Source: Ignavibacteriota bacterium (GTDB lineage: Bacteria > Bacteroidota > Ignavibacteria > Palsa-1295). Taken from it: 64,000 nucleotides of DNA. Position 1 is the first letter of the stretch. The number at the start of each line of letters is the position of its first letter. Shown here piece by piece: positions 10,003-33,200 of this stretch. Made by a program: the position numbers and the translations under genes. The notes under the pieces are model-generated. The model did no database searches. It had not been told where the DNA came from and saw only the letters and a program-made list of their open reading frames with translations. Location: NCBI GenBank assembly GCA_963787835.1, contig CAWBEI010000001.1:1-64000 (forward strand). Reading direction: 5' to 3'.

Positions 10003-13000
10003 ATGAAACGATTTCTGTCATTGCTCGCGACCGGAGCGCTAACGCTTGGTCTTACCGTTTCTGCATCAGCCCAACGTCGTGGGTTAAGTGGGGCAGCCCT
10101 CGTGCTCGACGATTATCATGGGCATACCATTACTATGGAGACCCCACAATTGACGTCTCCACCAAATGCAGAATATTTGGCATGGGAAAATGCTGGTTTC
10201 CCCCCGCTTACTTGGACCGCACCCGTGCCGCCAATTACCGGTGCACAGGCAGGATTCGTTTTTTCCGGTCCGTTGACCCCGGCTTCGATCACCCCGTACC
10301 TTTCCTATTGGCTCCCACCGGGAGTTACTAGCCCCTATACTGGCAATAAGGGCGGTTACGCCGGCGCGTGGGATTATGCCACGACGAATCAGCTCGGCCT
10401 TCTTACCACGGGTTCACCCCTTGGCGATCAAGAAAATGTCGTTACAGATGCCTCTGGCCATCTCATCACGCAAGCGAATGGCGGCAACAATACGGTATTG
10501 CATGGCACGACCCCTCCGAGTTGGGGCGCAGTGGTAGATGGCGACATTACCGCAGCTACCATCACCAGCGACCGATTGGCAAATACTGCTGTATCGGCAG
10601 GTAGCTATGGGGATGCGACGCACACCGGTACTTTCACTGTAAATGCCGAAGGACAACTTACTGCTGCTTCGAGTACACTTATTACACTTTCCGGCGATGT
10701 AACAGGCAACGCAGGTGCTACGACGATCGCGAACACCTCAATCGGTGGCGGTCATATTATCGCCGCCTTGACGACGAATGGCGGTACATTGACCAATAGC
10801 ACGACAGGCAATGCATCCACGGCAACTAACGCGACGAACGCCGCGAACTTATCCGGTTCGAATTTAACGGGTGACGTGACGAACGTTGGCGACGCAACCA
10901 CGATCGCGAACACGTCGGTTGGTGGTGGTCATATTATCGCCGCGCTGACGACGAACGGCGGCACGCTTACGAATAGCACGACAGGCAATGCTGCTACGGC
11001 AACAAACGCAACGAATGCTGCTAACCTTACGGGCTCGAACCTGACAGGTGATGTTACGAATGTAGGCGATGCAACAACGATCGCGAACACCTCTGTTGGC
11101 GGCGGCCACATCATCGCAGCATTGACAACGAACGGTGGCACGCTCACGAACAGCACGACAGGTAATGCTGCAACGGCCACGAGTGCAGCCAACCTTACGA
11201 GCTCGAACCTGACAGGTGACGTCACAAACGTTGGTGATGCAACCACGATCGCGAACACCTCAATCGGCGGCGGCCACATTATAGCTGCTTTGACGACGAA
11301 CGGCGGTACACTCACGAATAGCACGACAGGTAATGCTGCAACGGCCACGAGTGCAGCCAACCTTACGGGCTCGAACCTTACGGGCGACGTGACGAATGTT
11401 GGCGACGCAACGACGATCGCGAACACCTCAATCGGTGGCGGTCATATTATAGCTGCTTTGACGACGAACGGCGGTACACTCACGAATAGCACGACAGGTA
11501 ATGCTGCAACGGCCACGAGTGCAGCCAACCTTACGGGCTCGAACCTTACGGGTGACGTGACGAACGTAGGTGACGCAACAACGATCGCGAACACCTCAAT
11601 CGGTGGCGGTCATATTATCGCCGCCTTGACGACGAATGGCGGTACATTGACCAATAGCACGACAGGCAATGCCTCCACGGCAACAAATGCGACGAACGCC
11701 GCGAATTTATCCGGTTCGAATTTAACGGGTGACGTGACGAATGTTGGCGACGCAACGACGATCGCGAACACCTCTGTCGGTGGCGGTCATATTATCTCCG
11801 CCTTGACGACGAATGGCGGTACGCTTACGAATAGCACGACTGGCAATGCATCCACGGCAACAAACGCGACGAATGCCGCGAATTTATCCGGTTCGAATTT
11901 AACTGGTGACGTGACGAATGTTGGCGACGCAACGACGATCGCGAACACGTCGGTTGGTGGTGGTCACATCATTGCCGCGTTGACGACGAACGGCGGTACG
12001 CTCACGAACAGCACGACAGGCAATGCCTCCACGGCAACAAACGCAACAAGCGCCGCGAACTTATCCGGTTCGAACTTAACGGGTGACATGACGAACGTTG
12101 GTGACGCGACAACGATCGCGAACACCTCGACAGGCGGCGGCCACATCATCGCAGCCTTGACGACAAACGGCGGTACGCTGACGAACAACACCAGTGGCAC
12201 TGCGTCATCGGCAACGTCCGCTGCAAATCTCACTGGCTCGAACCTTACGGGCGACGTGACGAACATAGGTGACGCAACGACGATCGCGAACACGTCGGTT
12301 GGTGGTGGTCACATCATCGCCGCGTTGACAACGAACGGCGGCACGCTTACGAATAGCACGACTGGCAATGCCTCCACGGCAACAAACGCGACGAATTCTG
12401 CGAACTTATCCGGTTCGAACCTTACGGGCGACGTTACGAACGTAGGTGATGCCACCACGATCGCGAACACCTCCGTCGGTGGCGGTCATATTATCGCCGC
12501 CTTGACGACGAACGGCGGTACGCTGACGAACAATACCTCTGGTAGCGCGGCATCAGCAGCCAATCTTACTGGCTCGAACCTTACAGGTGACGTGACGAAC
12601 GTAGGTGACGCAACGACGATCGCGAACACCTCCGTCGGTGGCGGTCATATTATCGCAGCCTTGACAACGAACGGTGGAACGCTCACGAACAGTACGACGG
12701 GTAATGCCGCGACTGCTACGAGTGCAGCCAACCTTACGGGCTCGAACCTTACTGGTGACGTGACGAATGTTGGCGACGCAACAACGATCGCGAACACCTC
12801 AGTTGGCGGCGGCCACATCATCGCCGCCTTGACGACGAATGGCGGTACACTGACGAATAACACCTCGGGCAGTGCAGCATCAGCAGCCAATCTTACAGGT
12901 TCGAACTTAACGGGTGACGTGACGAATGTTGGCGACGCAACAACGATCGCGAACACCTCTGTCGGTGGCGGTCATATTATCTCCGCCTTGACGACGAATG

Positions 13001-16000
13001 GCGGTACATTAACCAATAGCACGACAGGCAATGCCTCCACGGCAACAAATGCGACGAACGCCGCGAACTTATCCGGTTCGAATTTAACGGGTGACGTGAC
13101 GAACGTAGGTGACGCAACGACGATCGCGAACACCTCAGTTGGTGGCGGCCACATTATAGCTGCTTTGACGACGAACGGCGGTACACTCACGAATAGCACG
13201 ACAGGTAATGCTGCAACGGCCACGAGTGCAGCCAACCTTACGGGCTCGAACCTTACGGGTGACGTGACGAACGTAGGTGACGCGACAACGATCGCGAACA
13301 CCTCAGTTGGTGGCGGCCACATTATAGCTGCTTTGACGACGAACGGCGGTACGCTCACGAACAACACCTCGGGTAGCGCGGGATCGGCAACGAATGCGGC
13401 AAACCTGACCGGCTCGAATTTGACGGGTGACGTGACGAACGTAGGTGACGCTACGACGATCGCGAACACCTCTGTCGGCGGGGGTCACATTATCGCCGCC
13501 TTGACGACGAACGGCGGTACGCTCACGAACAGCACGACAGGCAATGCCTCCACGGCAACAAACGCGACGAACGCCGCGAACTTATCCGGTTCGAACTTAA
13601 CGGGTGACGTGACGAATGTTGGCGACGCAACAACGATCGCGAACACCTCAGTTGGCGGCGGCCACATCATCGCCGCCTTGACGACGAATGGCGGTACACT
13701 GACGAATAACACCTCGGGCAGTGCAGCATCAGCAGCCAATCTTACAGGTTCGAACTTAACGGGTGACGTGACGAATGTTGGCGACGCAACAACGATCGCG
13801 AACACCTCAGTTGGTGGCGGCCACATTATAGCTGCTTTGACGACGAACGGCGGTACACTCACGAATAGCACGACAGGTAATGCTGCAACGGCCACGAGTG
13901 CAGCCAACCTTACGGGCTCGAACCTTACGGGTGACGTGACGAACGTAGGTGACGCGACAACGATTGCGAACACGTCCACTAGCGGCGCTGACATTATAGC
14001 CGCTTTGACGACGAACGGCAGTACGCTCACGAACAACACCTCGGGTAGCGCGGGATCGGCAACGAGTGCAGCAAACCTGACCGGTTCTAATCTAACCGGT
14101 GATATTACGAACGTAGGTGACGCAACGACGATCGCGAACACCTCCGTCGGTGGCGGTCATATTATCGCCGCCTTGACGACGAACGGCGGTACGCTCACGA
14201 ACAGCACGACAGGCAATGCTGCCACGGCAACAAGCGCCGCGAACTTATCCGGTTCGAACTTAACGGGTGACGTGACGAACGTAGGTGACGCAACGACGAT
14301 CGCGAACACCTCAGTCGGTGGCGGCCACATCATCGCCGCGTTGACAACGAACGGCGGCACGCTTACGAATAGCACGACAGGCAATGCTGCCACGGCAACA
14401 AGCGCGACGAACGCCGCGAACTTATCCGGTTCGAACTTAACGGGTGACGTGACGAACGTTGGCGACGCTACGACGATCGCGAATACCTCAATCGGTGGCG
14501 GTCATATTATCGCCGCCTTGACGACGAATGGCGGTACATTGACCAACAGCACGACAGGCAATGCCTCCACGGCAACAAATGCGACGAACGCCGCGAACTT
14601 ATCTGGTTCGAACCTTACGGGCGACGTTACGAACGTAGGTGATGCCACCACGATCGCGAACACCTCGACAGGCGGCGGTCATATTATCGCCGCGTTGACG
14701 ACGAACGGCGGTACGCTCACGAACAACACATCGGGAACTGCCTTGAATGTGACTGGCATCGTAGGTGTAGCCAACGGCGGTACAGGTGCAAATCTTTCGT
14801 CGACAGGCGGTACTTCGAATGTTTTATTGCAATCGAGCACTGGTGCTCCCATCACAGTGGGCCAGCTTTCATCGAGCGATCTATCCGATGGTGGTTCACT
14901 TGCGACAACGAGCTATGTAGATAACGCGGTTAATAACGCACTGTCATCCGCCAATTCCTATACGGATAACGCAGTCAGCAACGCGATCACGCTCACCGAG
15001 GGCTACACGGATAACGCAGTCAGCAACGCGGTCACGCTCACCGAGGGCTATACGAACACCGCAGTTAGCAACGCGATCACGCTCACCGAGGGCTATACGA
15101 ACACCGCAGTTAGTAACGCGATCACCACATCTGAGAGCTATACTGATTCAAAGGTCGCTAATTATCTTCCACTTGCCGGTGGCATTATGACGGGTGCGAT
15201 CGACATGGGAACCCCGAACAATCAGATCAATGATCTGAAGGACCCGACATCGCCACAGGATGCGGCGACGAAGAATTATGTCGATAACGCGATCGGTTCT
15301 TACACCCCGACGCCTTCGTTTAGCGCCATCGCGACGGGTGTTAATGCTACGGCCACTATGACTGTAAATACTGGCGCCTCGCTCACGTATGAGAACGACG
15401 GCACCATCAATGCGTCAAGCCTTGAAAGCGCAACATGGGAAGCACCGGGAACCATCGGGAGTGGCACGCCGAATACCGGTGCATTCACTACGTTAAGCGC
15501 GGCACCCACAAGCGATGTTGTTGCCGTTCAGATCACTGGATTTAGCGGAGGTACCTCCGCTGACGTGAACGCGAACAATTGGAGCGTTTCCCATGCGGGT
15601 GCCGGTACCTTCAATGGAGGTCTCTCCTTAAACGGTGCCGCAACACCCGTTGCGAACGAGATCCAGTTCTACAATGGAACCTCCACCTCGCAGGGTACAC
15701 TTGCTTCGGCTGCCTCGGCCAATACTCCGACCTGGACGCTTCCCGACGAAACCGGTACCATCGCGCTTGTAAGCCAGCTCCCAACGGCTACTAATTTCAT
15801 TGTGAATTCCGGTTCCGTTCAGTCCGGTGCGCAATTTAATATTAGCGGCAATGGCACGATAGGCGGTGTCCTTTATACCACCGACATTGAAGATCCGCCC
15901 ACAGGATTGCATGTCAACACGTCCAGCGGAGGTAGTACCTCTATTGGTAACTCGAGCGGAGGGACTTCTATCACTGGTAAGAACTGGAGCGTGAACGATG

Positions 16001-16356
16001 CTACGGGTGCTGTTACGACCACGGGCAACATCTCGACAACGTCTTCCGGTACGATCACATCGGCGGGAACACTGACCGCTTCCGGTAACCTTGTTGGAGG
16101 TGGAAGCGTGCAGTTCCATACCATCACGACGATGGCTACTCCGTTCTACCAGGCACAGCCTTCCGATTATTACATTATCGTGAACACGGGCGGCACTGGC
16201 GTGAAAATGCCGGCCGGGGCCGTTGCAGGACAGAAGCTTATTATCACGAACGCCACGGCTACGGCGTTCACGGCAGCCAACAGCGACTTCGCTGTTCCGC
16301 CGGGAACCACTTGGAACCTCATTTTCGATGGCTCCAACTGGCAACTTGTCTTTTAA
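10003..16356 (+). CDS. Giant secreted repetitive fibre protein 1 (2117 aa), trimeric tail-fibre/adhesin-like
   Basis: Signal peptide ...SASA|Q; N-domain shared with 27236 and 30217; 24 tandem repeats; 15-residue YTD repeats; YLPLAGGIMTG; DAATKNYVD; C-terminal MP..G.KL.I.N...FDGSNW knob. Confidence 0.85.
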   Translation: MKRFLSLLATGALTLGLTVSASAQRRGLSGAALVLDDYHGHTITMETPQLTSPPNAEYLAWENAGFPPLTWTAPVPPITGAQAGFVFSGPLTPASITPYLSYWLPPGVTSPYTGNKGGYAGAWDYATTNQLGLLTTGSPLGDQENVVTDASGHLITQANGGNNTVLHGTTPPSWGAVVDGDITAATITSDRLANTAVSAGSYGDATHTGTFTVNAEGQLTAASSTLITLSGDVTGNAGATTIANTSIGGGHIIAALTTNGGTLTNSTTGNASTATNATNAANLSGSNLTGDVTNVGDATTIANTSVGGGHIIAALTTNGGTLTNSTTGNAATATNATNAANLTGSNLTGDVTNVGDATTIANTSVGGGHIIAALTTNGGTLTNSTTGNAATATSAANLTSSNLTGDVTNVGDATTIANTSIGGGHIIAALTTNGGTLTNSTTGNAATATSAANLTGSNLTGDVTNVGDATTIANTSIGGGHIIAALTTNGGTLTNSTTGNAATATSAANLTGSNLTGDVTNVGDATTIANTSIGGGHIIAALTTNGGTLTNSTTGNASTATNATNAANLSGSNLTGDVTNVGDATTIANTSVGGGHIISALTTNGGTLTNSTTGNASTATNATNAANLSGSNLTGDVTNVGDATTIANTSVGGGHIIAALTTNGGTLTNSTTGNASTATNATSAANLSGSNLTGDMTNVGDATTIANTSTGGGHIIAALTTNGGTLTNNTSGTASSATSAANLTGSNLTGDVTNIGDATTIANTSVGGGHIIAALTTNGGTLTNSTTGNASTATNATNSANLSGSNLTGDVTNVGDATTIANTSVGGGHIIAALTTNGGTLTNNTSGSAASAANLTGSNLTGDVTNVGDATTIANTSVGGGHIIAALTTNGGTLTNSTTGNAATATSAANLTGSNLTGDVTNVGDATTIANTSVGGGHIIAALTTNGGTLTNNTSGSAASAANLTGSNLTGDVTNVGDATTIANTSVGGGHIISALTTNGGTLTNSTTGNASTATNATNAANLSGSNLTGDVTNVGDATTIANTSVGGGHIIAALTTNGGTLTNSTTGNAATATSAANLTGSNLTGDVTNVGDATTIANTSVGGGHIIAALTTNGGTLTNNTSGSAGSATNAANLTGSNLTGDVTNVGDATTIANTSVGGGHIIAALTTNGGTLTNSTTGNASTATNATNAANLSGSNLTGDVTNVGDATTIANTSVGGGHIIAALTTNGGTLTNNTSGSAASAANLTGSNLTGDVTNVGDATTIANTSVGGGHIIAALTTNGGTLTNSTTGNAATATSAANLTGSNLTGDVTNVGDATTIANTSTSGADIIAALTTNGSTLTNNTSGSAGSATSAANLTGSNLTGDITNVGDATTIANTSVGGGHIIAALTTNGGTLTNSTTGNAATATSAANLSGSNLTGDVTNVGDATTIANTSVGGGHIIAALTTNGGTLTNSTTGNAATATSATNAANLSGSNLTGDVTNVGDATTIANTSIGGGHIIAALTTNGGTLTNSTTGNASTATNATNAANLSGSNLTGDVTNVGDATTIANTSTGGGHIIAALTTNGGTLTNNTSGTALNVTGIVGVANGGTGANLSSTGGTSNVLLQSSTGAPITVGQLSSSDLSDGGSLATTSYVDNAVNNALSSANSYTDNAVSNAITLTEGYTDNAVSNAVTLTEGYTNTAVSNAITLTEGYTNTAVSNAITTSESYTDSKVANYLPLAGGIMTGAIDMGTPNNQINDLKDPTSPQDAATKNYVDNAIGSYTPTPSFSAIATGVNATATMTVNTGASLTYENDGTINASSLESATWEAPGTIGSGTPNTGAFTTLSAAPTSDVVAVQITGFSGGTSADVNANNWSVSHAGAGTFNGGLSLNGAATPVANEIQFYNGTSTSQGTLASAASANTPTWTLPDETGTIALVSQLPTATNFIVNSGSVQSGAQFNISGNGTIGGVLYTTDIEDPPTGLHVNTSSGGSTSIGNSSGGTSITGKNWSVNDATGAVTTTGNISTTSSGTITSAGTLTASGNLVGGGSVQFHTITTMATPFYQAQPSDYYIIVNTGGTGVKMPAGAVAGQKLIITNATATAFTAANSDFAVPPGTTWNLIFDGSNWQLVF
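10693..14739 (+). repeat. 24 intragenic tandem repeats of 53/56/59 aa (159/168/177 bp)
   Basis: Unit GDVTNVGDATTIANTSVGGGHIIAALTTNGGTLTNSTTGNA(ATA/TNA)nANLTGSNLT, counted in the translation. Confidence 0.95.
14914..15147 (+). repeat. 45-bp (15-residue) Y-T-D/N coiled-coil repeats, six Y positions
   Basis: YVDNAVNNALSSANS YTDNAVSNAITLTEG YTDNAVSNAVTLTEG YTNTAVSNAITLTEG YTNTAVSNAITTSES YTD. Confidence 0.9.
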
Positions 16357-16458: not shown

Positions 16459-19400
16459 ATGACTTCCATTCGCAGATTCCTATCCCGCGCGGCCCTTGGC
16501 GCATTTGCCGCTTCGCTGTTCTTCGCCTCCGCGTCCCACGCACAAGTGCGTCAGACGAACATCTATATTGACAACGGTTCCGGAGCGTTCACCGACCTTA
16601 AGGGCGGCGGCACCGGAACGATCACGTTTCCGGCTGTAACCGGAACCGCCATCACCACCGGTAACCTTTCGGCTATTACCGGGCTCGGAACCATCAGCAG
16701 CGGCGTTTGGAACGGCACTGCGATCGGCCTGCAATATGGGGGCACCGGAGTCGATGGCACCAACATCGCCACCAATCTCTTCTTTGCCGGTCCGAATGGA
16801 TCGACCGGTTCGGCCACGTTCCGCGCGATCGCACCGGCTGATCTTCCTATCGCAACGACCACAACGTTAGGCGCAGTCGAAGCCGACGGAACTACTATCA
16901 CCATTACAGGTGGTGGCGTGATCAGCGCCGTTGCTGCAGCGCCGAGCGGTGCTGCCGGTGGGGATCTTGGTAGTACCTATCCGAACCCAACGGTTGTCAG
17001 CGTTGCGGATGTAACAACGGGTGTGCTCAAGATTGCGAATGGTGGTACGGGCGCAGCGACGGTTGGGTCTAACAACTTAGTCTTTGCGGGACCGTCCACG
17101 AGCGCACCGGGCGCACCCTCCTTCCGATCGTTGGTGGCCTCGGATATTCCTTCCCTCAGTGGTACCTATCTTCCGCTTGCGGGTGGTACCATGACGGGAA
17201 CGGAGACCTTCACCGTGTCTTCCGGCAATGACATTACCGGCGACTCGTGGAGTGTCGATAATGCTGGTAACGTAACGGCAACGAGCTTCTCCGGTGCAGG
17301 CACGGGTTTTACAGGAACTGCGACCAGCTTAAATATTGGCGGCAATGCAGCAACGGCAACCACTGCAGCGGCACTTTCACCGGGCGCGACGATCAACGGT
17401 GTGAACTTTACAGGCGCTGCTCCGATCACGGTGACAGCAGCGATGAATACGCTCACGGGTACCAACTACGCAGCAGGCAACGGCTCTGCAATTACGAATC
17501 TTTCCGGCGGTAATATCACCACAGGTACAGTTCCGTATGCTGCCATTCAGCAAGAGTCGGCTAACACGTTGCTCGGTAACCCGACAGCTGGGTCTCAAGC
17601 TCCGGAAGAGATCACGATCGGCACTGGAATCACGGTTACTGGAACGACGATCAGTGTCACCGGTGCACCGCCGACGGGTACAGCAGGGGGCGATCTTACG
17701 GGAAGCTATCCCGGCCCAACCATTGTGGGGACTGCCGGCAATGACATCGTGGATGCTATCAACAATGCAGCAACCACGCATAATATTAACAACACCGCTA
17801 TCAGCATAACGGCAGGCGCAGCAAACTTATCGAACATTACGGTAGCGCCGACGAGCGGTACCGCAATACAGATTAATAATGCAACCGTATCAACCTTTGA
17901 CATCTCGGCCAATAACTGGAATGTTCAACAAAGCGGTAATGCTAATTTTACCGGCGGTATAGGGGTTGGCTCGAACATTACCCACGTCGCGGGAACAGTT
18001 ACTATCTTGGATGGCACTGGAGGTTATGGCACATTGCAAGCCGCAGCTGCGATTCCCACCAACCCAGTTTGGACGCTACCCAATGCGACAGGTACTATCG
18101 CCCTTACAAGCCAGCTTCCAGCAGCCAACAGCTTTATCAACAATAGCGCAACGCAGCAAACAAGCGCAAACTTCAATATTGATGGCAGCGGCACCATTGG
18201 CGGTACGCTGAATGTCGATAATATCGAAGATGCTGTCGTGCTTCAGATCAACACCGGCGCTGGAAAGAACACAGAGATCGGTAATGCGTCGGGAACCACG
18301 ACAATTACGACAAGCAATTGGGGCGTCGATAATCTTGGTAACGTAACTGCAACGAGCTTCTCTGGAACCGGCTCTGCGCTCACGAGTCTTTCTGGCGCCA
18401 ATATTACCGCTGGCTCGATTCCGTATTCTGCCATTACTAATGAGACTGCAAGCACGCTGCTTGGTAATCCGACGGCAGGATCGGCTGCTCCGAGCGAGAT
18501 CACGCTTGGTGCTGGCCTCAGCTTCTCTGGAAATACGCTGGTGGGCACAGGCGGAACGGTAACCTCGGTTTCGGTGACGACGGCGAACGGCGTATCGGGT
18601 TCGGTAGCGAATCCGACGACGACGCCAGCGATTTCGCTGACGCTTGGTGACATCACCCCGACTTCGGTTGCGGCGACAGGCACGGTAACGGGTTCGAATC
18701 TTTCGGGTACAAACACTGGCGATCAGACGATCACGCTGACGGGTCCGGTAACGGGCTCCGGCACAGGAACCTTCGCGACGACGATCACGCCTTCGGCGGT
18801 GACGTATGGTGATATTCAGAACGAATCGACAGTCACGCTTCTCGGTAATCCGACGGCCGGATCGGCTGCTCCGAGCGAGATCACACTTGGTGCTGGCCTC
18901 AGCTTCTCTGGAAATACGCTGGTGGGCACAGGCGGAACGGTAACCTCGGTTTCGGTGACGACGGCGAACGGCGTATCGGGTTCGGTAGCGAATCCGACGA
19001 CGACGCCAGCGATCTCGCTGACCCTTGGTGACATCACACCAACTTCGGTTGCGGCGACAGGCACGGTAACGGGTTCGAATCTTTCGGGTACAAACACTGG
19101 CGATCAGACGATCACGCTGACGGGTCCGGTAACGGGCTCCGGCACAGGAACCTTCGCGACGACGATCACGCCTTCGGCGGTGACGTATGGCGATATTCAG
19201 AACGAATCGACAGTCACGCTTCTCGGTAATCCGACAGCCGGATCGGCTGCTCCCAGCGAGATCACGCTTGGTGCTGGCCTCAGCTTCTCTGGAAATACGC
19301 TGGTGGGCACAGGCGGAACGGTAACCTCGGTTTCGGTGACGACGGCGAATGGCGTCTCTGGTTCGGTAGCGAATCCGACGACGACGCCAGCGATCTCGCT

Positions 19401-20856
19401 GACCCTTGGTGACATCACACCAACTTCGGTTGCGGCGACAGGCACGGTAACGGGTTCGAATCTTTCGGGTACAAACACTGGCGATCAGACGATCACGCTG
19501 ACGGGTCCGGTAACGGGCTCCGGCACAGGAACCTTCGCGACGACGATCACGCCTTCGGCGGTGACGTATGGCGATATTCAGAACGAATCGACAGTCACGC
19601 TTCTCGGTAATCCGACAGCCGGATCGGCTGCTCCCAGCGAGATCACGCTTGGTGCTGGCCTCAGCTTCTCTGGAAATACGCTGGTGGGCACAGGCGGAAC
19701 GGTAACCTCGGTTTCGGTGACGACGGCGAATGGCGTCTCTGGTTCGGTAGCGAATCCGACGACGACGCCAGCGATCTCGCTGACCCTTGGTGACATCACA
19801 CCAACTTCGGTTGCGGCGACAGGCACGGTAACGGGTTCGAATCTTTCGGGTACAAACACTGGCGATCAGACGATCACGCTGACGGGTCCGGTAACGGGCT
19901 CCGGCACAGGAACCTTCGCGACGACGATCACGCCTTCGGCGGTGACGTATGGCGATATTCAGAACGAATCGACAGTCACGCTTCTCGGTAATCCGACAGC
20001 CGGATCGGCTGCTCCCAGCGAGATCACGCTTGGTGCTGGCCTCAGCTTCTCTGGAAATACGCTGGTGGGCACAGGCGGAACGGTAACCTCGGTTTCGGTG
20101 ACGACGGCGAATGGCGTCTCTGGTTCGGTAGCGAATCCGACGACGACGCCAGCGATTTCGCTGACGCTTGGTGACATCACACCGACTTCGGTCACAGCGA
20201 CAGGTGCCGGTTCGTTCGGTTCACTCGCAGTTGGAAGCACTGGACAATTCACCGTTGATGCAAGTGGCAACACCGCAACGACTGGTACGCTTGGTGCTGC
20301 TGCTACGACGGTCACAGTGGCGTCAGGAGCTGCGCTTACCATTTCAAATGGTACCGTTAGCTCATCGAACTACGATATTTCTGGAGACAGCTGGAGTGTG
20401 GCAAGCACTGGCGCTGGAAACTTCAATGGCGGACTTTCGCTCTCGAACAGCGTACCTGCTGTTGCGAATCAGATCCAGTTCGATCATGGTGCCGTTGGAA
20501 CCCTTGCTTCAGCTTCGCTCGGTAGTGCACAAACCTGGACGCTTCCGGCAACCGGTGGCACGCTTGCAACGGTAGGCGCACCCATCACTACGCTGGTTTA
20601 CTCCACGGAGAGTGAAGATGGAACCTCGAATTCCGTAACGGTATCAGGTAGCAATACCTTTGCACAGATCACGGGCACGCCGACGGCCAACGTAGCAGTC
20701 TCTGTTACAGCGACGCCAGTTAATGGACAGGTAATTCTCCTGTTCAATAACACGAGCACGTATCCGTTGGTACTCAACGGGCAGTTTGTATTCCCGCAGT
20801 ACACCGGCAAGTTTATCTACTTGACGGGTCCGGGATGGACATTGATGCAGTATTAA
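16459..20856 (+). CDS. Secreted fibre protein 2 (1465 aa)
   Basis: Signal peptide ...ASHA|Q; GAAGGDLGSTYPNP, ANGGTG, YLPLAGGTMTG, GNAATAT fibre motifs; 127-aa repeats; knob-like C-terminus. Confidence 0.85.
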   Translation: MTSIRRFLSRAALGAFAASLFFASASHAQVRQTNIYIDNGSGAFTDLKGGGTGTITFPAVTGTAITTGNLSAITGLGTISSGVWNGTAIGLQYGGTGVDGTNIATNLFFAGPNGSTGSATFRAIAPADLPIATTTTLGAVEADGTTITITGGGVISAVAAAPSGAAGGDLGSTYPNPTVVSVADVTTGVLKIANGGTGAATVGSNNLVFAGPSTSAPGAPSFRSLVASDIPSLSGTYLPLAGGTMTGTETFTVSSGNDITGDSWSVDNAGNVTATSFSGAGTGFTGTATSLNIGGNAATATTAAALSPGATINGVNFTGAAPITVTAAMNTLTGTNYAAGNGSAITNLSGGNITTGTVPYAAIQQESANTLLGNPTAGSQAPEEITIGTGITVTGTTISVTGAPPTGTAGGDLTGSYPGPTIVGTAGNDIVDAINNAATTHNINNTAISITAGAANLSNITVAPTSGTAIQINNATVSTFDISANNWNVQQSGNANFTGGIGVGSNITHVAGTVTILDGTGGYGTLQAAAAIPTNPVWTLPNATGTIALTSQLPAANSFINNSATQQTSANFNIDGSGTIGGTLNVDNIEDAVVLQINTGAGKNTEIGNASGTTTITTSNWGVDNLGNVTATSFSGTGSALTSLSGANITAGSIPYSAITNETASTLLGNPTAGSAAPSEITLGAGLSFSGNTLVGTGGTVTSVSVTTANGVSGSVANPTTTPAISLTLGDITPTSVAATGTVTGSNLSGTNTGDQTITLTGPVTGSGTGTFATTITPSAVTYGDIQNESTVTLLGNPTAGSAAPSEITLGAGLSFSGNTLVGTGGTVTSVSVTTANGVSGSVANPTTTPAISLTLGDITPTSVAATGTVTGSNLSGTNTGDQTITLTGPVTGSGTGTFATTITPSAVTYGDIQNESTVTLLGNPTAGSAAPSEITLGAGLSFSGNTLVGTGGTVTSVSVTTANGVSGSVANPTTTPAISLTLGDITPTSVAATGTVTGSNLSGTNTGDQTITLTGPVTGSGTGTFATTITPSAVTYGDIQNESTVTLLGNPTAGSAAPSEITLGAGLSFSGNTLVGTGGTVTSVSVTTANGVSGSVANPTTTPAISLTLGDITPTSVAATGTVTGSNLSGTNTGDQTITLTGPVTGSGTGTFATTITPSAVTYGDIQNESTVTLLGNPTAGSAAPSEITLGAGLSFSGNTLVGTGGTVTSVSVTTANGVSGSVANPTTTPAISLTLGDITPTSVTATGAGSFGSLAVGSTGQFTVDASGNTATTGTLGAAATTVTVASGAALTISNGTVSSSNYDISGDSWSVASTGAGNFNGGLSLSNSVPAVANQIQFDHGAVGTLASASLGSAQTWTLPATGGTLATVGAPITTLVYSTESEDGTSNSVTVSGSNTFAQITGTPTANVAVSVTATPVNGQVILLFNNTSTYPLVLNGQFVFPQYTGKFIYLTGPGWTLMQY
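18454..20192 (+). repeat. Four complete plus one partial near-identical 381-bp (127-aa) tandem repeats
   Basis: Units start at about 18454, 18835, 19216, 19597 and 19978; the shadow ORFs show the same 381-bp period. Confidence 0.95.
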
Positions 20857-21050: not shown

Positions 21051-24000
21051 ATGAATATCAAAACGCTTTTGGGTCGTGCTGCGACGCTCGCAGTAGGTTC
21101 CTTATTGCTTTTCACGTCCGTTTCTCGCGCACAGGTCCCGCAGACCAAGATCTACCTTTCGGATGGATCTGGCAATATACTCACACTCTCCGCGCTCGGC
21201 AGCGGCGGTGGAACCCTCACGCTTCCCAGCGGCGGCGGTACGCTGCTGACGATGGTGGGCGGGAACTCCTCGCTCGGCACCGTTACCAGCGGTACATGGC
21301 AAGGCACGATGATCGGTTCCGCTTACGGCGGGACGGGCCTGACCTCGTACGCCACGGGAGACATTCTCTATGCCTCGGCTACGAATACGCTATCGGCGCT
21401 GCCTATTGGCGGTCCTGGGCAGGTGCTCGAAGTCGTCAGCGGGGTTCCATCATGGCAGACGGTTGGAGGAACCGGAACGGTGACCAACTTTACGAGCGGT
21501 AACCTTTCGCCGGTCTTCACGACTTCGGTCGCAACATCCACGACCACCCCGGCGCTTACCTTCGCACTTTCTAACGCGGGGCCGCATACCTTCTTAGGGA
21601 ATTCCACCGGCACGTCGGCGGCGCCAACGTATAGCGCGGTCGATCTTTCGGCGGACGTCACCGGGCTGCTGCCGATCAGCGCACTCAACACGACGGGAAC
21701 CGCATCGAGCACCACGTATCTCCGTGGCGATGGCGCGTGGACGACGCTGCCCGCGGCACCCGTCACCAGCGTATCGAACTCCGATGGCAGCCTGACCATC
21801 TCGCCCACGACGGGTGATGTCGTTGCTTCGCTGAATGTCGCAAATCCGAACACGTGGACCGGCGCACAATCCATCATACCAGGCGCGAACGACGTCGTTG
21901 GCCTGACCATCAAGCCGGCTACTGCGTTCGACAAGGATGCCTTCGATGTGCTCTCGCTCGATGGGAGTACCACCTATCTCGGAGTGTTTCCCGGTGGCAC
22001 GGTCGGTATCACCACCATTGCTGTGAAGGGCGGAGATATTAATGGAGCCACGATCGGCGATCTCCTTCCGGAGGCAGGAACGTTCTCCGCGCTTACGTCG
22101 ACAACCGGCCTGACGCTTGGCTCCGGCGCGAACGCCACCACGCTTTCGAGCGCGGCGACGGGTTCTGCCAAGTCGGTGAACCTGCCGAACGCCAACGGTA
22201 ATCTTGCCCTCGTGGCAAGCACGACGGGTCAGATCATGGAAAGCGATGTTTCAGGTCTCGTCAGCGACCTTGCGAGCAAGGGTTCGGGAACGGTTACTTC
22301 TGTGAATGTGGCGATACCCGGTATGACCTCCTCCGGAGCTGTTACCACAAGCGGTACTATTTCTATGAGCGGCGCACTTGCGGTCGCCAATGGCGGAACG
22401 AACTCCTCCGCTGCGCTCACGAACAATAAAGTAATGATCTCCAGCAGTGGCGCCATCGTCGAAGGTCCGGCGTGGGCGGCTGGCTCGCCAGGCACGCTTA
22501 CGGCGAACATCACCGGCAGTGCGGCCTCCGCGACTACCGCAGCGGGACTATCCTCCACGCTGGCGGTGACGAGCGGCGGAACGGGAACTGGAACCGCACC
22601 TACGAGCGCGCAAATTCTTGTCGCGCAGTCCGGAACGGCATACGCGCCGGAAACGGTCGGCGGCGATGCTACGATCACTACAGGTGGGAACCTGGTCGTT
22701 ACCAAAACGAATGGAGTAGCATTTGGATCGGCTGCTACAGCGAACACTTCCGCATTCGATGCCAGCGGTGCGGCAACGACTGCCGTCAATACTGCCGTCA
22801 GCGGGACATCGGGGAAACTGGCCGTCTTTAACGGAACGAATTCCGTTACGAGCGGACCTGCGTATTCCAGCGGCGCACTCACGCTCGGCACAGGATCTTC
22901 CGTTCCAGGGACGATAGCCCTTGCCAATACCACCAACTCGAATTTAACAACTATCGAGGCCGGTGCGCCTGGTGCTGCTATTACCTATATGTTGCCAACG
23001 ACGGCACCGACGGCTAACCAAGTATTACAGTCATCGGCACCTGTTTCTAACGTGGCTACGCTCAGTTGGACGAGCGCAGCTTCGGGAACGGTAACTGGCA
23101 GCAGTTTCACCACCGAGGGCGTGATGTATGCCACAAGCGGAACGGGAATTGCGAGCACGGCAGCGTTGGCGAATGGACAGATCCTTGTTGGCGCGGGTAG
23201 CAGCACAGCACCTTCACCAGCCACGCTGGGCACGAGCAACGGCGTTACGACAGCGGTCGGTGCGGGTACGCTTTCCATCGGACTGGGTGCGATCACGCCG
23301 ACATCGGTTGCTTCGGCTGGAGCAGTCTCTGGAACCACACTCACGGCATCAACTGCCGCCAGCGGACTTGTACTTGGTTCCGGTGTGAATGCGACAACCT
23401 TTTCGAGTGGAGCTACAGCTGCGAGAGCCATCAGCTTCCCGGATGCGGCAGGTACGGTTGCACTGACGACCAGTAACGTTGCAAGTGCCACCAATATTGC
23501 AACGACATTGAATAGCGCCACTGCTACCGCAATGTACCCCACGTTTGTAGCCTCCAATACAACAAGCAACTCACAGGCAGCCAACGTCGCGACTGCACTG
23601 AGCTTCGTACCCTCGACTGGTGTGCTTTCGGCGACGACTTTCTCCGGAAGTGGTGCTTCGTTGACAAGCATTCCGAACTCGGCGCTGACGAACAATTCCA
23701 TCACCATTCAGGGAACCGCCGTCGCGCTCGGCGGGACAACGCTTGCGACGACAAGCACGCCTACGTTTGGGGGAATGACCCTTACTCCTACTGGCTCTAC
23801 GGTTGGTCTTACGATCAACGGTTCCTCATCTGGTAATGATATTACTGGCACGAACTGGTCGGTGACTCACGCAGGTGCGGGAACATTCGTTGGTTTAACC
23901 AATGCAGGTGCAGCAGTTAGTTTGAACAATAGTTCAAATTTTTCAACCAGCATCAACACCGGAACATCAACCGCAGCAGTGCATATTGCAGATGGAACAA

Positions 24001-25172
24001 CGGGCGGCAATGCAATCACTATCGGTAATGCTGTGAGCACAACCGCTGTCACAGTTCTTGCTGGCAGCGGTAATATCAATATCGGTACAGGAACCACGGC
24101 TCAGACGGTGCACATTGCTGACGGCGCGGCAGCGAACGCTGTAACACTCGGTTCCACGACTACTACTTCTACCACAACCATAGCGTCAGGTTCCGGCGGA
24201 GTGCTAATCAACAATGCCAACAACCAACCGACGAGCCTGAACACGGGAACCTCAACCGGCGCATTGCATCTTGCTGATGGGGGTACAGGAGGTAATGCCA
24301 TCACAATGGGTAATGCTAATGGCGCTACCGGTATTACGGCAAAGGTCGGAACAGGTAATTTTAGCCTCGATGGAGCTGCAACCTCAACGTACGCTATTGG
24401 TGCCTCCACCACGTCCGGCACAATTACCATTGGCGGTACGGGGGAAACCGGCAATTTGACACTCGGTTCAAGCACTGGCACGAACACAGAAATTATTGCT
24501 GGTGGATCGGGTGCAACCACGCTACAAATTGCTAATGCACAGACTGGCGGTTCGGTCGCGATTGGAACCGCTATGACGTCCGGCACGATCACAATCGGAG
24601 GTGCGGTTGCACAAACGGGAACCATCATTTTAGGCCAGTCCACTGGCACGAATACCATTGATGTTGGAACGGGAACTGGCGCGACCACGGTAGATATTGC
24701 CACCGGCGCAACGAATGCCAAGACCGTTGCTATTGCGAATGGAGCCGTTGCCAATACTGTTACCATCGGCTCGACAACTGGCGCCGCTACTACTACTCTT
24801 CAAGCTGGCACAGGCGGCAACGTCATCGTTGGACATCTTGTTGACGGGAACTCGTCAAATATTGCGTATACTAGTACCGGAAGTACGGATGTCACCTCTA
24901 CTGTTGTAACTGCTACTTCCGATCTTTCCGGAAACATTTCAGTTACACCCTCGGCAACCCATGCTATTACAGCTGCATTTACGTTCGCAAAAACTTTTGC
25001 GAATGCTCCAATAATAGTTATTACCCCCACAAATACTAATTTCGCCACCGGATTTAATACTCCTGCAGCTCCGATAATTTCTGCAACCTCAACTTCTGGC
25101 TTCAGTGTAGAATTTTATTCGACTGGGAGCGGTAATGCATTCACCTTCAATTATATAATCATGGGCCAGTAA
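21051..25172 (+). CDS. Secreted fibre protein 3 (1373 aa) with H-type-lectin/gp53-like C-terminal tip
   Basis: Signal peptide ...VSRA|Q; YATGDILYASATNTLSALPIG, TTYLRGDGAW and GTITIG repeats; C-terminus FAKTFANAPIIVITP...STSGF...FNYIIMG. Confidence 0.8.
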   Translation: MNIKTLLGRAATLAVGSLLLFTSVSRAQVPQTKIYLSDGSGNILTLSALGSGGGTLTLPSGGGTLLTMVGGNSSLGTVTSGTWQGTMIGSAYGGTGLTSYATGDILYASATNTLSALPIGGPGQVLEVVSGVPSWQTVGGTGTVTNFTSGNLSPVFTTSVATSTTTPALTFALSNAGPHTFLGNSTGTSAAPTYSAVDLSADVTGLLPISALNTTGTASSTTYLRGDGAWTTLPAAPVTSVSNSDGSLTISPTTGDVVASLNVANPNTWTGAQSIIPGANDVVGLTIKPATAFDKDAFDVLSLDGSTTYLGVFPGGTVGITTIAVKGGDINGATIGDLLPEAGTFSALTSTTGLTLGSGANATTLSSAATGSAKSVNLPNANGNLALVASTTGQIMESDVSGLVSDLASKGSGTVTSVNVAIPGMTSSGAVTTSGTISMSGALAVANGGTNSSAALTNNKVMISSSGAIVEGPAWAAGSPGTLTANITGSAASATTAAGLSSTLAVTSGGTGTGTAPTSAQILVAQSGTAYAPETVGGDATITTGGNLVVTKTNGVAFGSAATANTSAFDASGAATTAVNTAVSGTSGKLAVFNGTNSVTSGPAYSSGALTLGTGSSVPGTIALANTTNSNLTTIEAGAPGAAITYMLPTTAPTANQVLQSSAPVSNVATLSWTSAASGTVTGSSFTTEGVMYATSGTGIASTAALANGQILVGAGSSTAPSPATLGTSNGVTTAVGAGTLSIGLGAITPTSVASAGAVSGTTLTASTAASGLVLGSGVNATTFSSGATAARAISFPDAAGTVALTTSNVASATNIATTLNSATATAMYPTFVASNTTSNSQAANVATALSFVPSTGVLSATTFSGSGASLTSIPNSALTNNSITIQGTAVALGGTTLATTSTPTFGGMTLTPTGSTVGLTINGSSSGNDITGTNWSVTHAGAGTFVGLTNAGAAVSLNNSSNFSTSINTGTSTAAVHIADGTTGGNAITIGNAVSTTAVTVLAGSGNINIGTGTTAQTVHIADGAAANAVTLGSTTTTSTTTIASGSGGVLINNANNQPTSLNTGTSTGALHLADGGTGGNAITMGNANGATGITAKVGTGNFSLDGAATSTYAIGASTTSGTITIGGTGETGNLTLGSSTGTNTEIIAGGSGATTLQIANAQTGGSVAIGTAMTSGTITIGGAVAQTGTIILGQSTGTNTIDVGTGTGATTVDIATGATNAKTVAIANGAVANTVTIGSTTGAATTTLQAGTGGNVIVGHLVDGNSSNIAYTSTGSTDVTSTVVTATSDLSGNISVTPSATHAITAAFTFAKTFANAPIIVITPTNTNFATGFNTPAAPIISATSTSGFSVEFYSTGSGNAFTFNYIIMGQ

Positions 25173-27235: not shown

Positions 27236-29827
27236 ATGAAACGCACAGTACAGTTCCTGGTAGCAAGTGTATTAGTACTCGGTCTCACAACATTCGCTTC
27301 GGCACAGACCCGAGGTATTTCCGGTGGGGCGCTCGTGCTCGATGATCTTCACGGTGACTTCATGACGCTGACGACGCCACTCTATGGCTCGCCAGAGTGG
27401 GAAGCCTGGGCGTTCGAGGGTTTTCCGAACGTGTGGTATGCTCCGGTTCCACCGGCAAACGGCGCGCAAGATGCGTTCATCTATTCGGGACCGATCCCTG
27501 CGTATGGTACGGGTTCCATCAACCCGCCATTGATCGCGTATTGGGTTCCACCGGGAGTGCAGGGTGTCAATAATATCGGCGGCGCAGCCGGTGCGTGGGA
27601 TTACGCTACTGCCGGTCAGCTTGGGATCAGCGGAGCGGGTGATAACCTCGCACAATACGTCATCCCAATGAGCGATGGTGCCGGTGACTGGATTGCTTCC
27701 AGCCTCACCGATAATGGCACGACGGTTAACACACCTGAGGATATATCGCCGAACACCCTTACCTTGCCGAATCTTTACACATTTAGCTCACCGTCGCAAA
27801 ACGACCTTAGCTTGACGAGTATCGATAACACGTTCAATCTTCATTTGAATACAGATGCCACAGATGGCCCGGGTGCAGGCCAATTCAATATTTATTTTTC
27901 CGGCAATGGAAGCCCGACCTTTTCTGTGCTTGACGATGCTGTCCAGCTTGATGGCGGCGGCGAAGAGCTTGATCTTAATGGCGACGCTGGTACTGGGGGT
28001 GAATTCCTCGAAAGCCAGGGTGGTGGTTTTACCCCGATCTGGGCGACTGCTGTTACCGAGGTTGATGCAGGAACCGGTTTGACCGGCGGTCCGATCACCA
28101 CGTCGGGTACTCTTTCGATCGCGAATTCAGGCGTAGAAGCCGGTACGTACGGTGATGCGACGGATGTTGGGCAATTTACGGTCAATGCCCAAGGCCAAAT
28201 TACCAGTGCGAGTGACGTGAGCATTCTGCTTCCGAACGCGAATCTTGTTAATCCAGGCTTAACGATCAATACAGGCGCTGGGCTTACTGGCGGTGGTGCG
28301 GTTGCGCTCGGTGGTTCGCTCACGCTTTCGATACCTGCGGACGGCGTGACGAATGCAATGCTTCAACATTCGAGCTTAACGGTGACATCGGGCACGGGTC
28401 TTTCCGGTGGCGGCGCGATCTCACTTGGCGGTTCGGGAACCTTGAACATTGCCAATACCGGTGTGAGTGCTAACACATACGGCGATGCAACGCATGTTGG
28501 TTCGTTCACGGTCAATGCACAGGGACAGCTTACGAACGCGGCTAGCACAAGCATTCTGCTTCCGAATGCGAATCTCGTAAACTCCAGCTTAACGGTAGGA
28601 ACAGCGGCAGGTAGCGGGCTTTCAGGCGGAGGCGCCGTATCGCTCGGTGGTTCGCTTGCACTTTCGATCCCAGCAGGCGGTGTAACGAATGCCATGCTTG
28701 CAAACAACAGTTTAACGGTAACGGCAGGAACGGGATTGTCAGGTGGCGGTGTGGTTGCTTTAGGTGGCTCGACGACGCTTAACATTGCGCCAGGCTATAT
28801 CGGTCAATCCTCGATCACAACGCTTGGCACGATTACGACCGGCACGTGGCAGGGAACACCGATCGCCAACGCATATCTTGCAAATTCCAGCCTGACGGTT
28901 GGTACTGCGGCAGGCAGCGGTTTTACCGGCGGTGGTGTTGTATCGCTCGGTGGTTCACTCGCACTTTCGATCCCAGCAGGCGGTGTAACGAATGCGATGC
29001 TTGCAAACTCTGGCATAACGGTCACTGCGGGCTCTGGCTTGGGTGGTGGTGGCGCTGTTTCGCTTGGTGGAACAGTTACACTCACCAATGCCGGTGTGAC
29101 CTCGATCGCGGGCACTGCAAATCAGATCACTGCTTCAGCTTCGACTGGGGCAGTAACACTTTCCCTGCCGAACACCGTGAATATCGGTGCAGCAACACCC
29201 ACAGCGGGCCAGATCGGACTTTACAATGGTACCAATGCAAACCTTACCTCGATCAAGGCAGGCACGCCGGCGGCTGCGATCACGTACGTTCTTCCAACGA
29301 CCGCCCCAACGGCAGGCCAGGTGCTTTCATCGAGCGCTCCCTCTGGTGGTGTTGCGACGACGTCATGGACTACGCCGGCGAGTTCTGGCTTATGGGATGG
29401 AGATGTGTTGTTAGGAGCCGATTACACCAACACGACAACAACTCAATCGTCTATTCTTTCCTTCGCGTGTTCGGCATCGACGACCTATGAACTTGAGGGC
29501 TGGCTCGATGTCTCCTCCAATGCTTCACAGACTGGGGTGGGCCTTGCGCTCACTTCCGACGGCACGGGGTCTGTGGTTTCGCTTTTCACGAACGGCCCGC
29601 AAGATCTCACCGCATATGGAGGCAATGGTGCTACCGGAAGCGGTTCCTTGACACAAACTAATAATAATTATTTCAAAGTTTCAATGGAAGGCTTTCTCCA
29701 TTTTTGGGCACTCGTCAAATCTGGTACAGGAGCTACGACGATCAATTTGATGGGGGCTAATACCGGAACTCCTAATACTATGACGGTCTTTGCCGGGAGT
29801 CATATGTTCTATAGAGTGCAGCCATAA
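27236..29827 (+). CDS. Secreted fibre protein 4 (863 aa)
   Basis: Signal peptide ...FASA|Q; shared N-domain RGISGGALVLDD...GAWDYAT; six LANSSLTVTAGTGLSGGGxVxLGG-type units; beta-sandwich-like tip. Confidence 0.85.
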   Translation: MKRTVQFLVASVLVLGLTTFASAQTRGISGGALVLDDLHGDFMTLTTPLYGSPEWEAWAFEGFPNVWYAPVPPANGAQDAFIYSGPIPAYGTGSINPPLIAYWVPPGVQGVNNIGGAAGAWDYATAGQLGISGAGDNLAQYVIPMSDGAGDWIASSLTDNGTTVNTPEDISPNTLTLPNLYTFSSPSQNDLSLTSIDNTFNLHLNTDATDGPGAGQFNIYFSGNGSPTFSVLDDAVQLDGGGEELDLNGDAGTGGEFLESQGGGFTPIWATAVTEVDAGTGLTGGPITTSGTLSIANSGVEAGTYGDATDVGQFTVNAQGQITSASDVSILLPNANLVNPGLTINTGAGLTGGGAVALGGSLTLSIPADGVTNAMLQHSSLTVTSGTGLSGGGAISLGGSGTLNIANTGVSANTYGDATHVGSFTVNAQGQLTNAASTSILLPNANLVNSSLTVGTAAGSGLSGGGAVSLGGSLALSIPAGGVTNAMLANNSLTVTAGTGLSGGGVVALGGSTTLNIAPGYIGQSSITTLGTITTGTWQGTPIANAYLANSSLTVGTAAGSGFTGGGVVSLGGSLALSIPAGGVTNAMLANSGITVTAGSGLGGGGAVSLGGTVTLTNAGVTSIAGTANQITASASTGAVTLSLPNTVNIGAATPTAGQIGLYNGTNANLTSIKAGTPAAAITYVLPTTAPTAGQVLSSSAPSGGVATTSWTTPASSGLWDGDVLLGADYTNTTTTQSSILSFACSASTTYELEGWLDVSSNASQTGVGLALTSDGTGSVVSLFTNGPQDLTAYGGNGATGSGSLTQTNNNYFKVSMEGFLHFWALVKSGTGATTINLMGANTGTPNTMTVFAGSHMFYRVQP

Positions 29828-32730: not shown

Positions 32731-33200
32731 TGGTTCCGGATAGATTTGTAGTGAAACGGGTGCTCATAGCACCCGTTTTGCATTTTTGCTTGATTGTTTG
32801 CGTCCTCCTCGCTTGGGGTGGGATGCTGGCTTTGTTCAATGGTTGCTCGAGTTCACAGCCGATCGTAACACCAACTCAAGGTGCTATTAAGGCCCCGTTG
32901 GTACTTATGTCCGAAACGGATACGATACAGTCCGATAAAGAACTCGATGCATATCCGACGGTGCAGCATTTTATCAATCCCAGATCAGACACGGTCTTCT
33001 CTGTATTTCTTCCGTCGAAACAGGTTGCACCGGGAACCCTCCTCATTCTGATGTGTGATAATAAAACGATCACAACACCATACGTTAAAGTTCACTTCGA
33101 TCACGAAGATAGTATCCCTGCACTGCTTCTTTCCGGAGAGCAGACAAATATCTTCCTGTATGGGAGCGATAAGCGCTGGCGCTTGTTCGATCTGGAATAA
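32730..33200 (+). CDS. Probable lipoprotein with fibre-knob-like domain, coupled to fibre gene 5
   Basis: TAATG overlap; LALFNGC lipobox-like; VFLPSKQVAPGTLLILM...IFLYGSDKRW pattern. Confidence 0.6.
   Translation: MVPDRFVVKRVLIAPVLHFCLIVCVLLAWGGMLALFNGCSSSQPIVTPTQGAIKAPLVLMSETDTIQSDKELDAYPTVQHFINPRSDTVFSVFLPSKQVAPGTLLILMCDNKTITTPYVKVHFDHEDSIPALLLSGEQTNIFLYGSDKRWRLFDLE

What the first reader, a model, noticed from the sequence alone, without database searches (positions are those of the whole stretch)
10072..10400. Conserved ~110-aa Trp/Pro-rich N-terminal domain shared by fibres 1, 4 and 5: candidate docking/secretion module
Seen: after the signal peptide all three have RG(L/I)SG.ALVLDD.HG...T..TP....E..AW...GFP...W..PVPP..GAQ..F..SGP.....SI.P...YW.PPG......GG.AGAWDYAT..QLG (also at ~27305-27625 and ~30286-30606), whereas their tips are unrelated. 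Fibres 2 and 3 share a shorter start, QV.QT.IY(I/L)..GSG, which echoes the LxLDDxxG strand. Inference: two classes of mount domain that plug interchangeable fibres into a common surface base or act as an N-terminal export signal.
Basis: partly seen in the sequence, partly recalled or inferred. Interest (0 to 1): 0.75.

Follow-up and report, generated by a model that had tools for sequence, protein, structure and literature searches.

The report
Trimeric base cap of secreted fibres
Three secreted fibre-like proteins of an uncultured Kapabacteria-like bacterium start with the same undescribed 110-residue domain, which is predicted to form an intertwined trimer, likely arose from a phage tail-fibre module and likely caps the cell-facing end of the fibre; no export or docking partner for it was found.

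Summary
The domain is real. It is 55-56% identical between fibre 1 and fibres 4/5, has five copies in the genome and occurs in 13 of 14 same-genus genomes but 0 of 300 sampled phylum genomes. All 68 database relatives carry it at the start of the protein, none internally. It has no Pfam, NCBIfam, PHROG or PDB match and is not the Bdellovibrio MAT base domain, which other fibres of this genome resemble. It is predicted to form an intertwined homotrimer (0.91, best control 0.00). A chain of shorter forms links it to a module found inside fibre stalks and in a cyanophage fibre, so it is best read as an enlarged first node and cap of the fibre. The fibre 2/3 start is a distant short form of the same family, not a separate class. 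An Arg/Asp-Asp hairpin found only at the mature N-terminus is the candidate docking or export signal. No partner gene is linked to it (1 of 51 genes in relatives has a small T9SS protein beside it), and binding to a partner was not tested. The scan had no look-alike of this domain, but reported MAT-like fibre arrays in this and other genomes.

The parts
10072..10401 (+). Long N-terminal domain of fibre 1 (residues 24-133); predicted intertwined homotrimer
10072..10143 (+). N-terminal Arg/Asp-Asp beta-hairpin (first 24 mature residues), shared with the short forms and found only at mature N-termini
10003..16356 (+). Fibre 1 gene, 2117 aa: signal-peptide-like start ending Ala-Gln (10003-10071, read by eye), domain, tandem-repeat stalk (23 copies of one 10-residue repeat word), own tip
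16459..20856 (+). Fibre 2 gene, 1465 aa, DUF5907 repeats; short-form start at 16543-16584
21051..25172 (+). Fibre 3 gene, 1373 aa; short-form start at 21132-21173; internal stalk node from 22917; weak H-type lectin tip (below cut-off)
27305..27631 (+). Long N-terminal domain of fibre 4
27236..29827 (+). Fibre 4 gene, 863 aa; internal stalk node from 29216
30286..30612 (+). Long N-terminal domain of fibre 5 (86-87% identical to that of fibre 4)
30217..32730 (+). Fibre 5 gene (837 aa from the ATG used in the database record; ORF open from 30163); internal stalk node from 32131
32308..32727 (+). Fibre 5 tip, predicted TNF-like beta-sandwich resembling phage fibre tips and lectins; shared with five fibres that have other bases

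Best explanation
The domain is likely the first structural node and end cap of a secreted fibre: it sits right after the signal peptide, three copies are predicted to intertwine into a trimer, and it likely forms the cell-facing base on which stalks and adhesive tips are swapped. Shown: position, distribution, lack of a family match, purifying selection, and tip shuffling across bases. Predicted: the homotrimer. Inferred: after Sec export the chains zip into a trimer. The module descends from a phage tail-fibre node that also recurs inside stalks. At the terminus it gained an Arg/Asp-Asp hairpin that closes the free end, and in one genus it gained a Trp helix and a second Trp/Gly lobe, giving the 110-residue form. 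How the fibre crosses and is held on the outer membrane is not shown; if the base takes part, the short hairpin is the likely contact.
For: Three-copy fold: score 0.91 against best control 0.00. The mark was reached by 20 of 30 solved pairs and 1 of 23 single chains (rough here: three copies, own alignment); runs agree in at least 88% of contacts; pLDDT at least 82; contacts span residues 3-115 with same-residue pairs 10-10, 63-63, 77-77, 78-78, 110-110. No like structure by sequence. The monomer folds poorly (pLDDT 68, pTM 0.40). 23 of 25 positions conserved in at least 90% of rows lie in predicted inter-chain contacts. Homology chain: long to medium 99.9%, medium to short 98.5%, long to short 97.2%; long to a bridging short form 96.4% over 28 columns; bridging form to internal stalk nodes 88.8%, against at most 0.86 in 30 column shuffles; bridging form to cyanophage P-SCSP1u fibre gp28 residues 720-764, E 0.0014; its nearest Atlas clusters are tailed-phage proteins, 0.92-0.93. 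dN/dS between fibres 4 and 5 is about 0.10 in the domain and about 0.19-0.21 in two stalk stretches. The fibre 5 tip model (pLDDT 87) matches a cyanophage fibre binding domain and TNF-like lectins, and relatives carry BclA_C, H-lectin or weak Peptidase_G2 ends.
Against: The long domain does not align directly with internal nodes (0.1-0.15%), so the link is transitive. 89 of 113 positions are in predicted contact anyway, so 23 of 25 is only a mild excess (mean conservation 0.63 versus 0.54). The Arg/Asp-Asp signature is kept across two families and never internal, which fits a recognition signal equally well. One relative (P0053) carries Kelch repeats, not a typical trimeric tip. The trimer is a model; I had no coordinates to measure exposed surface.
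Confidence: 0.55

Rival explanations
1. The N-terminal module, chiefly its Arg/Asp-Asp hairpin, is a dedicated docking or export signal read by an outer-membrane or type IX secretion (T9SS) partner, letting fibres with neither a T9SS tail nor a MAT base reach and stay on the surface.
For: The signature occurs 97 times in the first 100 residues, plus once just after an Ala-Gln site in an over-long ORF, and nowhere else in 120,550 internal residues of 202 fibre-like proteins (redundant set). R and DD are invariant in the bridging alignment. 0 of 68 relatives have a T9SS tail or MAT-like base, and the genome has no YadA anchor but has SprA, PorV and at least 148 T9SS tails over cut-off. By my hand count, 22 of 33 fibre starts in the genome are of this node type and 8 are MAT-like. 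The same tip family sits on node-type and MAT-like bases. For MATs an invariant N-terminal domain is presumed to bind a surface element (PMC10769870, Discussion).
Against: No partner gene travels with it: no small T9SS-tail protein lies within 30 kb of any node-type fibre gene in this genome, while one lies 5 bases from a MAT-like fibre; 1 of 51 such genes in 31 loci of relatives has one within 1.5 kb. The neighbouring lipoprotein is in only 2 of 35 family genomes. The long form is limited to one genus, whereas the stand-alone mini T9SS protein is family-wide, so the extra 60 or so residues cannot be a general signal.
Confidence: 0.3
2. The domain is shared only because the 5' ends of these genes were duplicated locally; it is ordinary shaft with no special terminal role.
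For: Fibres 4 and 5 are paralogues over most of their length. The signal peptides of the three genes look alike. The module is a shaft node by descent.
Against: Synonymous sites between fibre 1 and fibres 4/5 are near saturation while 57% of residues are kept. The domain never occurs internally and is kept on unrelated bodies at three loci of this genome.
Confidence: 0.1
3. The domain is the distal, target-binding end, or the fibres are released or stay periplasmic and are not mounted at all.
For: It is rich in Trp and Pro, as glycan-binding surfaces can be (general knowledge). No anchor or export partner is known, and localisation is untested.
Against: The C-termini carry the variable lectin-like tips while the N-terminus is the constant end, the polarity proposed for MATs.
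Confidence: 0.05

Closest known systems
Mosaic adhesive trimer (MAT) fibres of Bdellovibrio bacteriovorus (Caulton et al. 2024, PMC10769870; NCBIfam NF053851 Bdello_MAT_N)
   Same: Signal peptide, then a constant N-terminal domain, mosaic phage-like stalk and swapped adhesive tips including TNF-like ones; many paralogues per genome; the surface element holding the base is unknown.
   Different: The constant domain is not MAT_N (no NF053851 match; 0.19% to this genome's MAT-like domain). It is an enlarged shaft node. Other fibres of the same genome do carry a MAT_N-like domain (below cut-off). No evidence that this organism is a predator.
Tail-fibre node of cyanophage P-SCSP1u gp28 (PDB 8I4M; PMC10575957) and related tailed-phage fibre modules
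   Same: The bridging short form matches gp28 residues 720-764 (E 0.0014); gp28 is a trimeric fibre (passages).
   Different: In the phage the node is internal and the fibre docks through a jelly-roll N-terminus; here it starts a Sec-exported chromosomal protein. The long form itself does not match gp28 or viral contigs. I did not check whether residues 720-764 are modelled in 8I4M.
Mtd N-terminal domain (PF18454) of Bordetella phage BPP-1 (role as trimeric attachment end recalled, not from a call)
   Same: Weak Atlas lead for the bridging form (0.88; TM 0.45).
   Different: No PF18454 match in the genome at E<=10 or among 11 short forms; a lead only.

Membership tests
MAT fibres | Conserved ~130-residue beta-rich MAT_N domain right after the signal peptide | tested here: not met
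   No NF053851 match for the starts of fibres 1-4 at E<=0.1; the genome-wide search hits four other genes only
MAT fibres | Signal peptide, constant N-terminus, variable adhesive C-terminal tips | tested here: met
   signal peptides read by eye, no predictor run
MAT fibres | Homotrimeric fibre | tested here: inconclusive
   Predicted trimer of the first 131 mature residues only; no experiment
MAT fibres | Surface exposure and target binding | not testable with these tools
   needs localisation and binding assays
MAT fibres, S74 subgroup | C-terminal S74 chaperone-protease | tested here: not met
   No Pfam S74 match in the five window fibres; some relatives have weak Peptidase_G2 ends below cut-off
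T9SS cargo | C-terminal sorting domain (PF18962) | tested here: not met
   none in the five window fibres; 0 of 68 relatives with a genome-built tail profile
Trimeric autotransporter adhesins | C-terminal YadA-type membrane anchor | tested here: not met
   no PF03895 in the genome; control rang in E. coli
Phage tail-fibre node | Sequence homology to a module of a phage fibre | tested here: inconclusive
   met by the bridging short form; only transitively by the long domain

The most novel reading that the evidence does not exclude
The Arg/Asp-Asp hairpin at the mature N-terminus, shown three times on the end of the trimer, is an undescribed export or docking signal. It would let most fibres of these bacteria, which have no T9SS tail, no autotransporter anchor and no MAT base, be carried out or moored by a shared T9SS-linked or outer-membrane receptor encoded elsewhere in the genome.
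Probability: 0.27. Interest if true: 0.72.

Novelty: new variant of a known kind. Interest (0 to 1): 0.42.

Why it matters
How MAT-like fibres are exported and held on the cell is an open question (PMC10769870, Discussion). This genome shows that a second, unrelated base can carry the same tips, and that about two thirds of its fibre genes lack the MAT base. Either the base is not what gets them out, or a second signal exists. The finding narrows that candidate signal to about 24 residues with three testable charged positions. The 110-residue form itself is a genus-level elaboration and, if only structural, is a modest addition: an uncatalogued small trimerisation cap.

Tried and rejected
Family match for the domain: none in Pfam, NCBIfam, PHROGs (first member none; two single-member weak hits among 22), PDB sequences or the Atlas (first hit 0.90, unnamed, low recognition). 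Foldseek of the monomer against viral and PDB libraries: nothing at E<=0.001; the model is poor (pTM 0.40), so this says little, and the wide VIA search did not complete. Identity with MAT_N: rejected. A fused or mimicked copy of the mini T9SS protein's N-domain: rejected, at most 0.43%. The lipoprotein after fibre 5 as partner: rejected, 2 of 35 genomes and tied to a tip type. A conserved neighbouring barrel or T9SS mini gene: not found by listing the fetched loci (partly cut; 113, 137); neighbours were housekeeping genes read by eye, with no systematic barrel scan. Mtd_N: not supported. Phage origin of the long form: no relative in viral contigs with a narrow pattern search. A Streptomyces hit (E 8e-5) was not followed up. 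Titin hits of the bridging profile are sums of weak repeats, none passing alone. Slam-type export: no hit, but the control rang nowhere; ShlB one weak hit below cut-off. One mis-picked row was dropped from the internal-node alignment. The single complex job went to the homotrimer, so no partner co-fold was run.

Full report
Observation. The window holds five co-directional Gly/Thr/Ser-rich ORFs of 855-2117 residues between an rpoZ-like gene and polA. My literal regex of the pattern failed on gap lengths, which does not affect the alignment. The fibre 2/3 motif is at 16543 and 21132. The three tips do not match each other, but fibres 4 and 5 are paralogues over most of their length; fibre 1 shares only residues 1-155.

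Distribution and position. The genome has two more copies, on contigs C2 and C4. A three-copy profile finds it in 13 of 14 same-genus genomes, weakly in 1 of 10 other genomes of the family and in 0 of 16 genomes of other families. A 22-row profile finds 0 of 300 sampled genomes of the phylum. Related loci are titled Candidatus Kapaibacterium, Ignavibacteriota and Bacteroidetes MAGs. Among 1.84 billion representatives there are 68 hits: 63 start at residues 14-57 and 5 are fragments starting at 1-2. None has an internal copy, a T9SS tail or a MAT-like base. In 20 of 20 fetched loci it follows a signal-peptide-like stretch. Bodies vary from 260 residues with a BclA_C tip to over 2000; one relative carries Kelch repeats.

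Known families. There is no match in Pfam, NCBIfam, PHROGs, PDB sequences or, usefully, the Atlas. Other fibres of the same genome match Bdello_MAT_N below its cut-off, and their domain is unrelated to this one.

Structure. The monomer model is weak (pLDDT 68, pTM 0.40): a hairpin at 10-22, a helix at 33-40 and two later strands. Three copies give a score of 0.91 against a best control of 0.00. The mark was reached by 20 of 30 solved pairs and 1 of 23 single chains, roughly applicable here; runs agree in at least 88% of contacts, pLDDT is at least 82, and contacts run from residue 3 to 115 with same-residue pairs that suggest a three-fold axis. This supports, but does not show, an intertwined trimer. 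23 of the 25 most conserved positions are in predicted contacts, against 89 of 113 overall.

Origin. By hand count the genome has about 33 fibre starts, picked by a composition filter plus additions: 8 MAT-like, 22 of a node type in long, medium and short forms, and 3 others. Profile comparisons link long to medium (99.9%), medium to short (98.5%) and long to short (97.2%). The short profile is found in 18 of 23 genomes of the family, 6 of 21 of a second family and 1 of 12 of a third, 26 of 201 in all; 27 of 27 inspected hits are N-terminal. A bridging form matches the first 28 columns of the long domain (96.4%), internal stalk nodes (88.8%; 30 shuffles at most 0.86), and the fibre 2/3 type (86.6%). 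It also matches residues 720-764 of cyanophage P-SCSP1u fibre gp28 (E 0.0014), and its nearest Atlas clusters are tailed-phage proteins. The long domain does not align with internal nodes directly, nor convincingly with the fibre 2/3 type (6%), so these links are transitive. What is unique to the terminus is an Arg and an Asp-Asp pair: 97 N-terminal matches, one more after an Ala-Gln site in an over-long ORF, and none elsewhere in 120,550 internal residues of 202 partly redundant proteins. Between fibres 4 and 5, dN/dS is about 0.10 in the domain and 0.19-0.21 in two stalk stretches.

Tips. The fibre 5 tip is shared with four short-base fibres and one MAT-like fibre. Its model (pLDDT 87) matches a cyanophage fibre binding domain and TNF-like lectins. 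The bases therefore look interchangeable under one tip, which favours a mount role in the broad sense.

Partner search. The genome has SprA, PorV and at least 148 T9SS tails over cut-off among 150 scored, and no YadA anchor. Earlier scan notes (AI notes, unchecked) suggested small T9SS-tail proteins as fibre adaptors, so I looked for them. One sits beside a MAT-like fibre, but none lies within 30 kb of a node-type fibre gene in this genome. In relatives, 1 of 51 such genes in 31 loci has one within 1.5 kb. A stand-alone mini protein is conserved across the family and is not homologous to the domain. The lipoprotein after fibre 5 follows a tip type and is rare. No partner co-fold was run.

Literature. 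PMC10769870 (passages and the Discussion section) describes MATs with an invariant ~130-residue N-terminal domain presumed to bind an unidentified surface element. PMC13689555, PMC13721041, PMC10575957 and PMC5445135 were seen as passages only. Eight searches of the held library showed no description of this domain or of Kapabacteria fibres in their listings; subscription papers and supplements were not seen, and the MAT paper's supplementary tables on other bacteria may bear on this.

Verdict. The most likely reading (0.55) is a trimeric first node and cap at the cell-facing end of MAT-like but not MAT-member fibres, enlarged in one genus. A dedicated docking or export signal, most plausibly the short hairpin, remains open (0.3) and can coexist with it. 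Novelty: new variant of a known kind. Interest 0.42.

Noticed in passing
window 32730-33200 +; paralogue G000:C2:258018-258407 -: A small lipoprotein-like gene follows each of two fibres that share the TNF-like tip family but have different bases; found in only 2 of 35 family genomes. Possibly a tip-specific chaperone or cap.
   Followed up: partly
G000:C2:717492-718986 (L059:5493-6987 -): A MAT_N-like short fibre gene is followed after 5 bases by a 147-residue T9SS-tail mini protein, the pairing that earlier scan notes describe in other genomes.
   Followed up: partly
G000:C2:1206821-1207348 (L058:8822-9349 -): Stand-alone 175-residue T9SS-tail mini protein with a strongly conserved N-terminal motif, full length in most of 35 family genomes, with varied neighbours. 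Candidate shared fibre adaptor.
   Followed up: partly
L021:7153-14632 and L022:4195-16781; proteins P0005, P0010, P0014, P0028, P0057: Same-genus proteins with this domain, a short stalk, a hydrophobic stretch and a weak Peptidase_G2 autocleaving chaperone match followed by a charged tail. The tip after cleavage may be membrane-active.
   Followed up: no
window 45071-48154 +: A subtilase with a T9SS tail lies between NADH dehydrogenase membrane-subunit genes.
   Followed up: no
window 33247-36175 -: DNA polymerase I is split into two overlapping ORFs, 5'-3' exonuclease and polymerase; frameshift or assembly error.
   Followed up: no
G000:C1, C2:253740-274982, C4:4240-17452; L023, L025, L036: In several fibre arrays the gene with the long or medium domain comes first, followed by short-form fibres; co-assembly is possible but untested.
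   Followed up: no
L128:9902-10928 and L131:7543-8067: Phage tail-collar-like small genes (recognised by eye) lie beside short-form fibre genes in two related genomes.
   Followed up: no
window 61271-63016 -: TIR-domain plus TPR protein.
   Followed up: no
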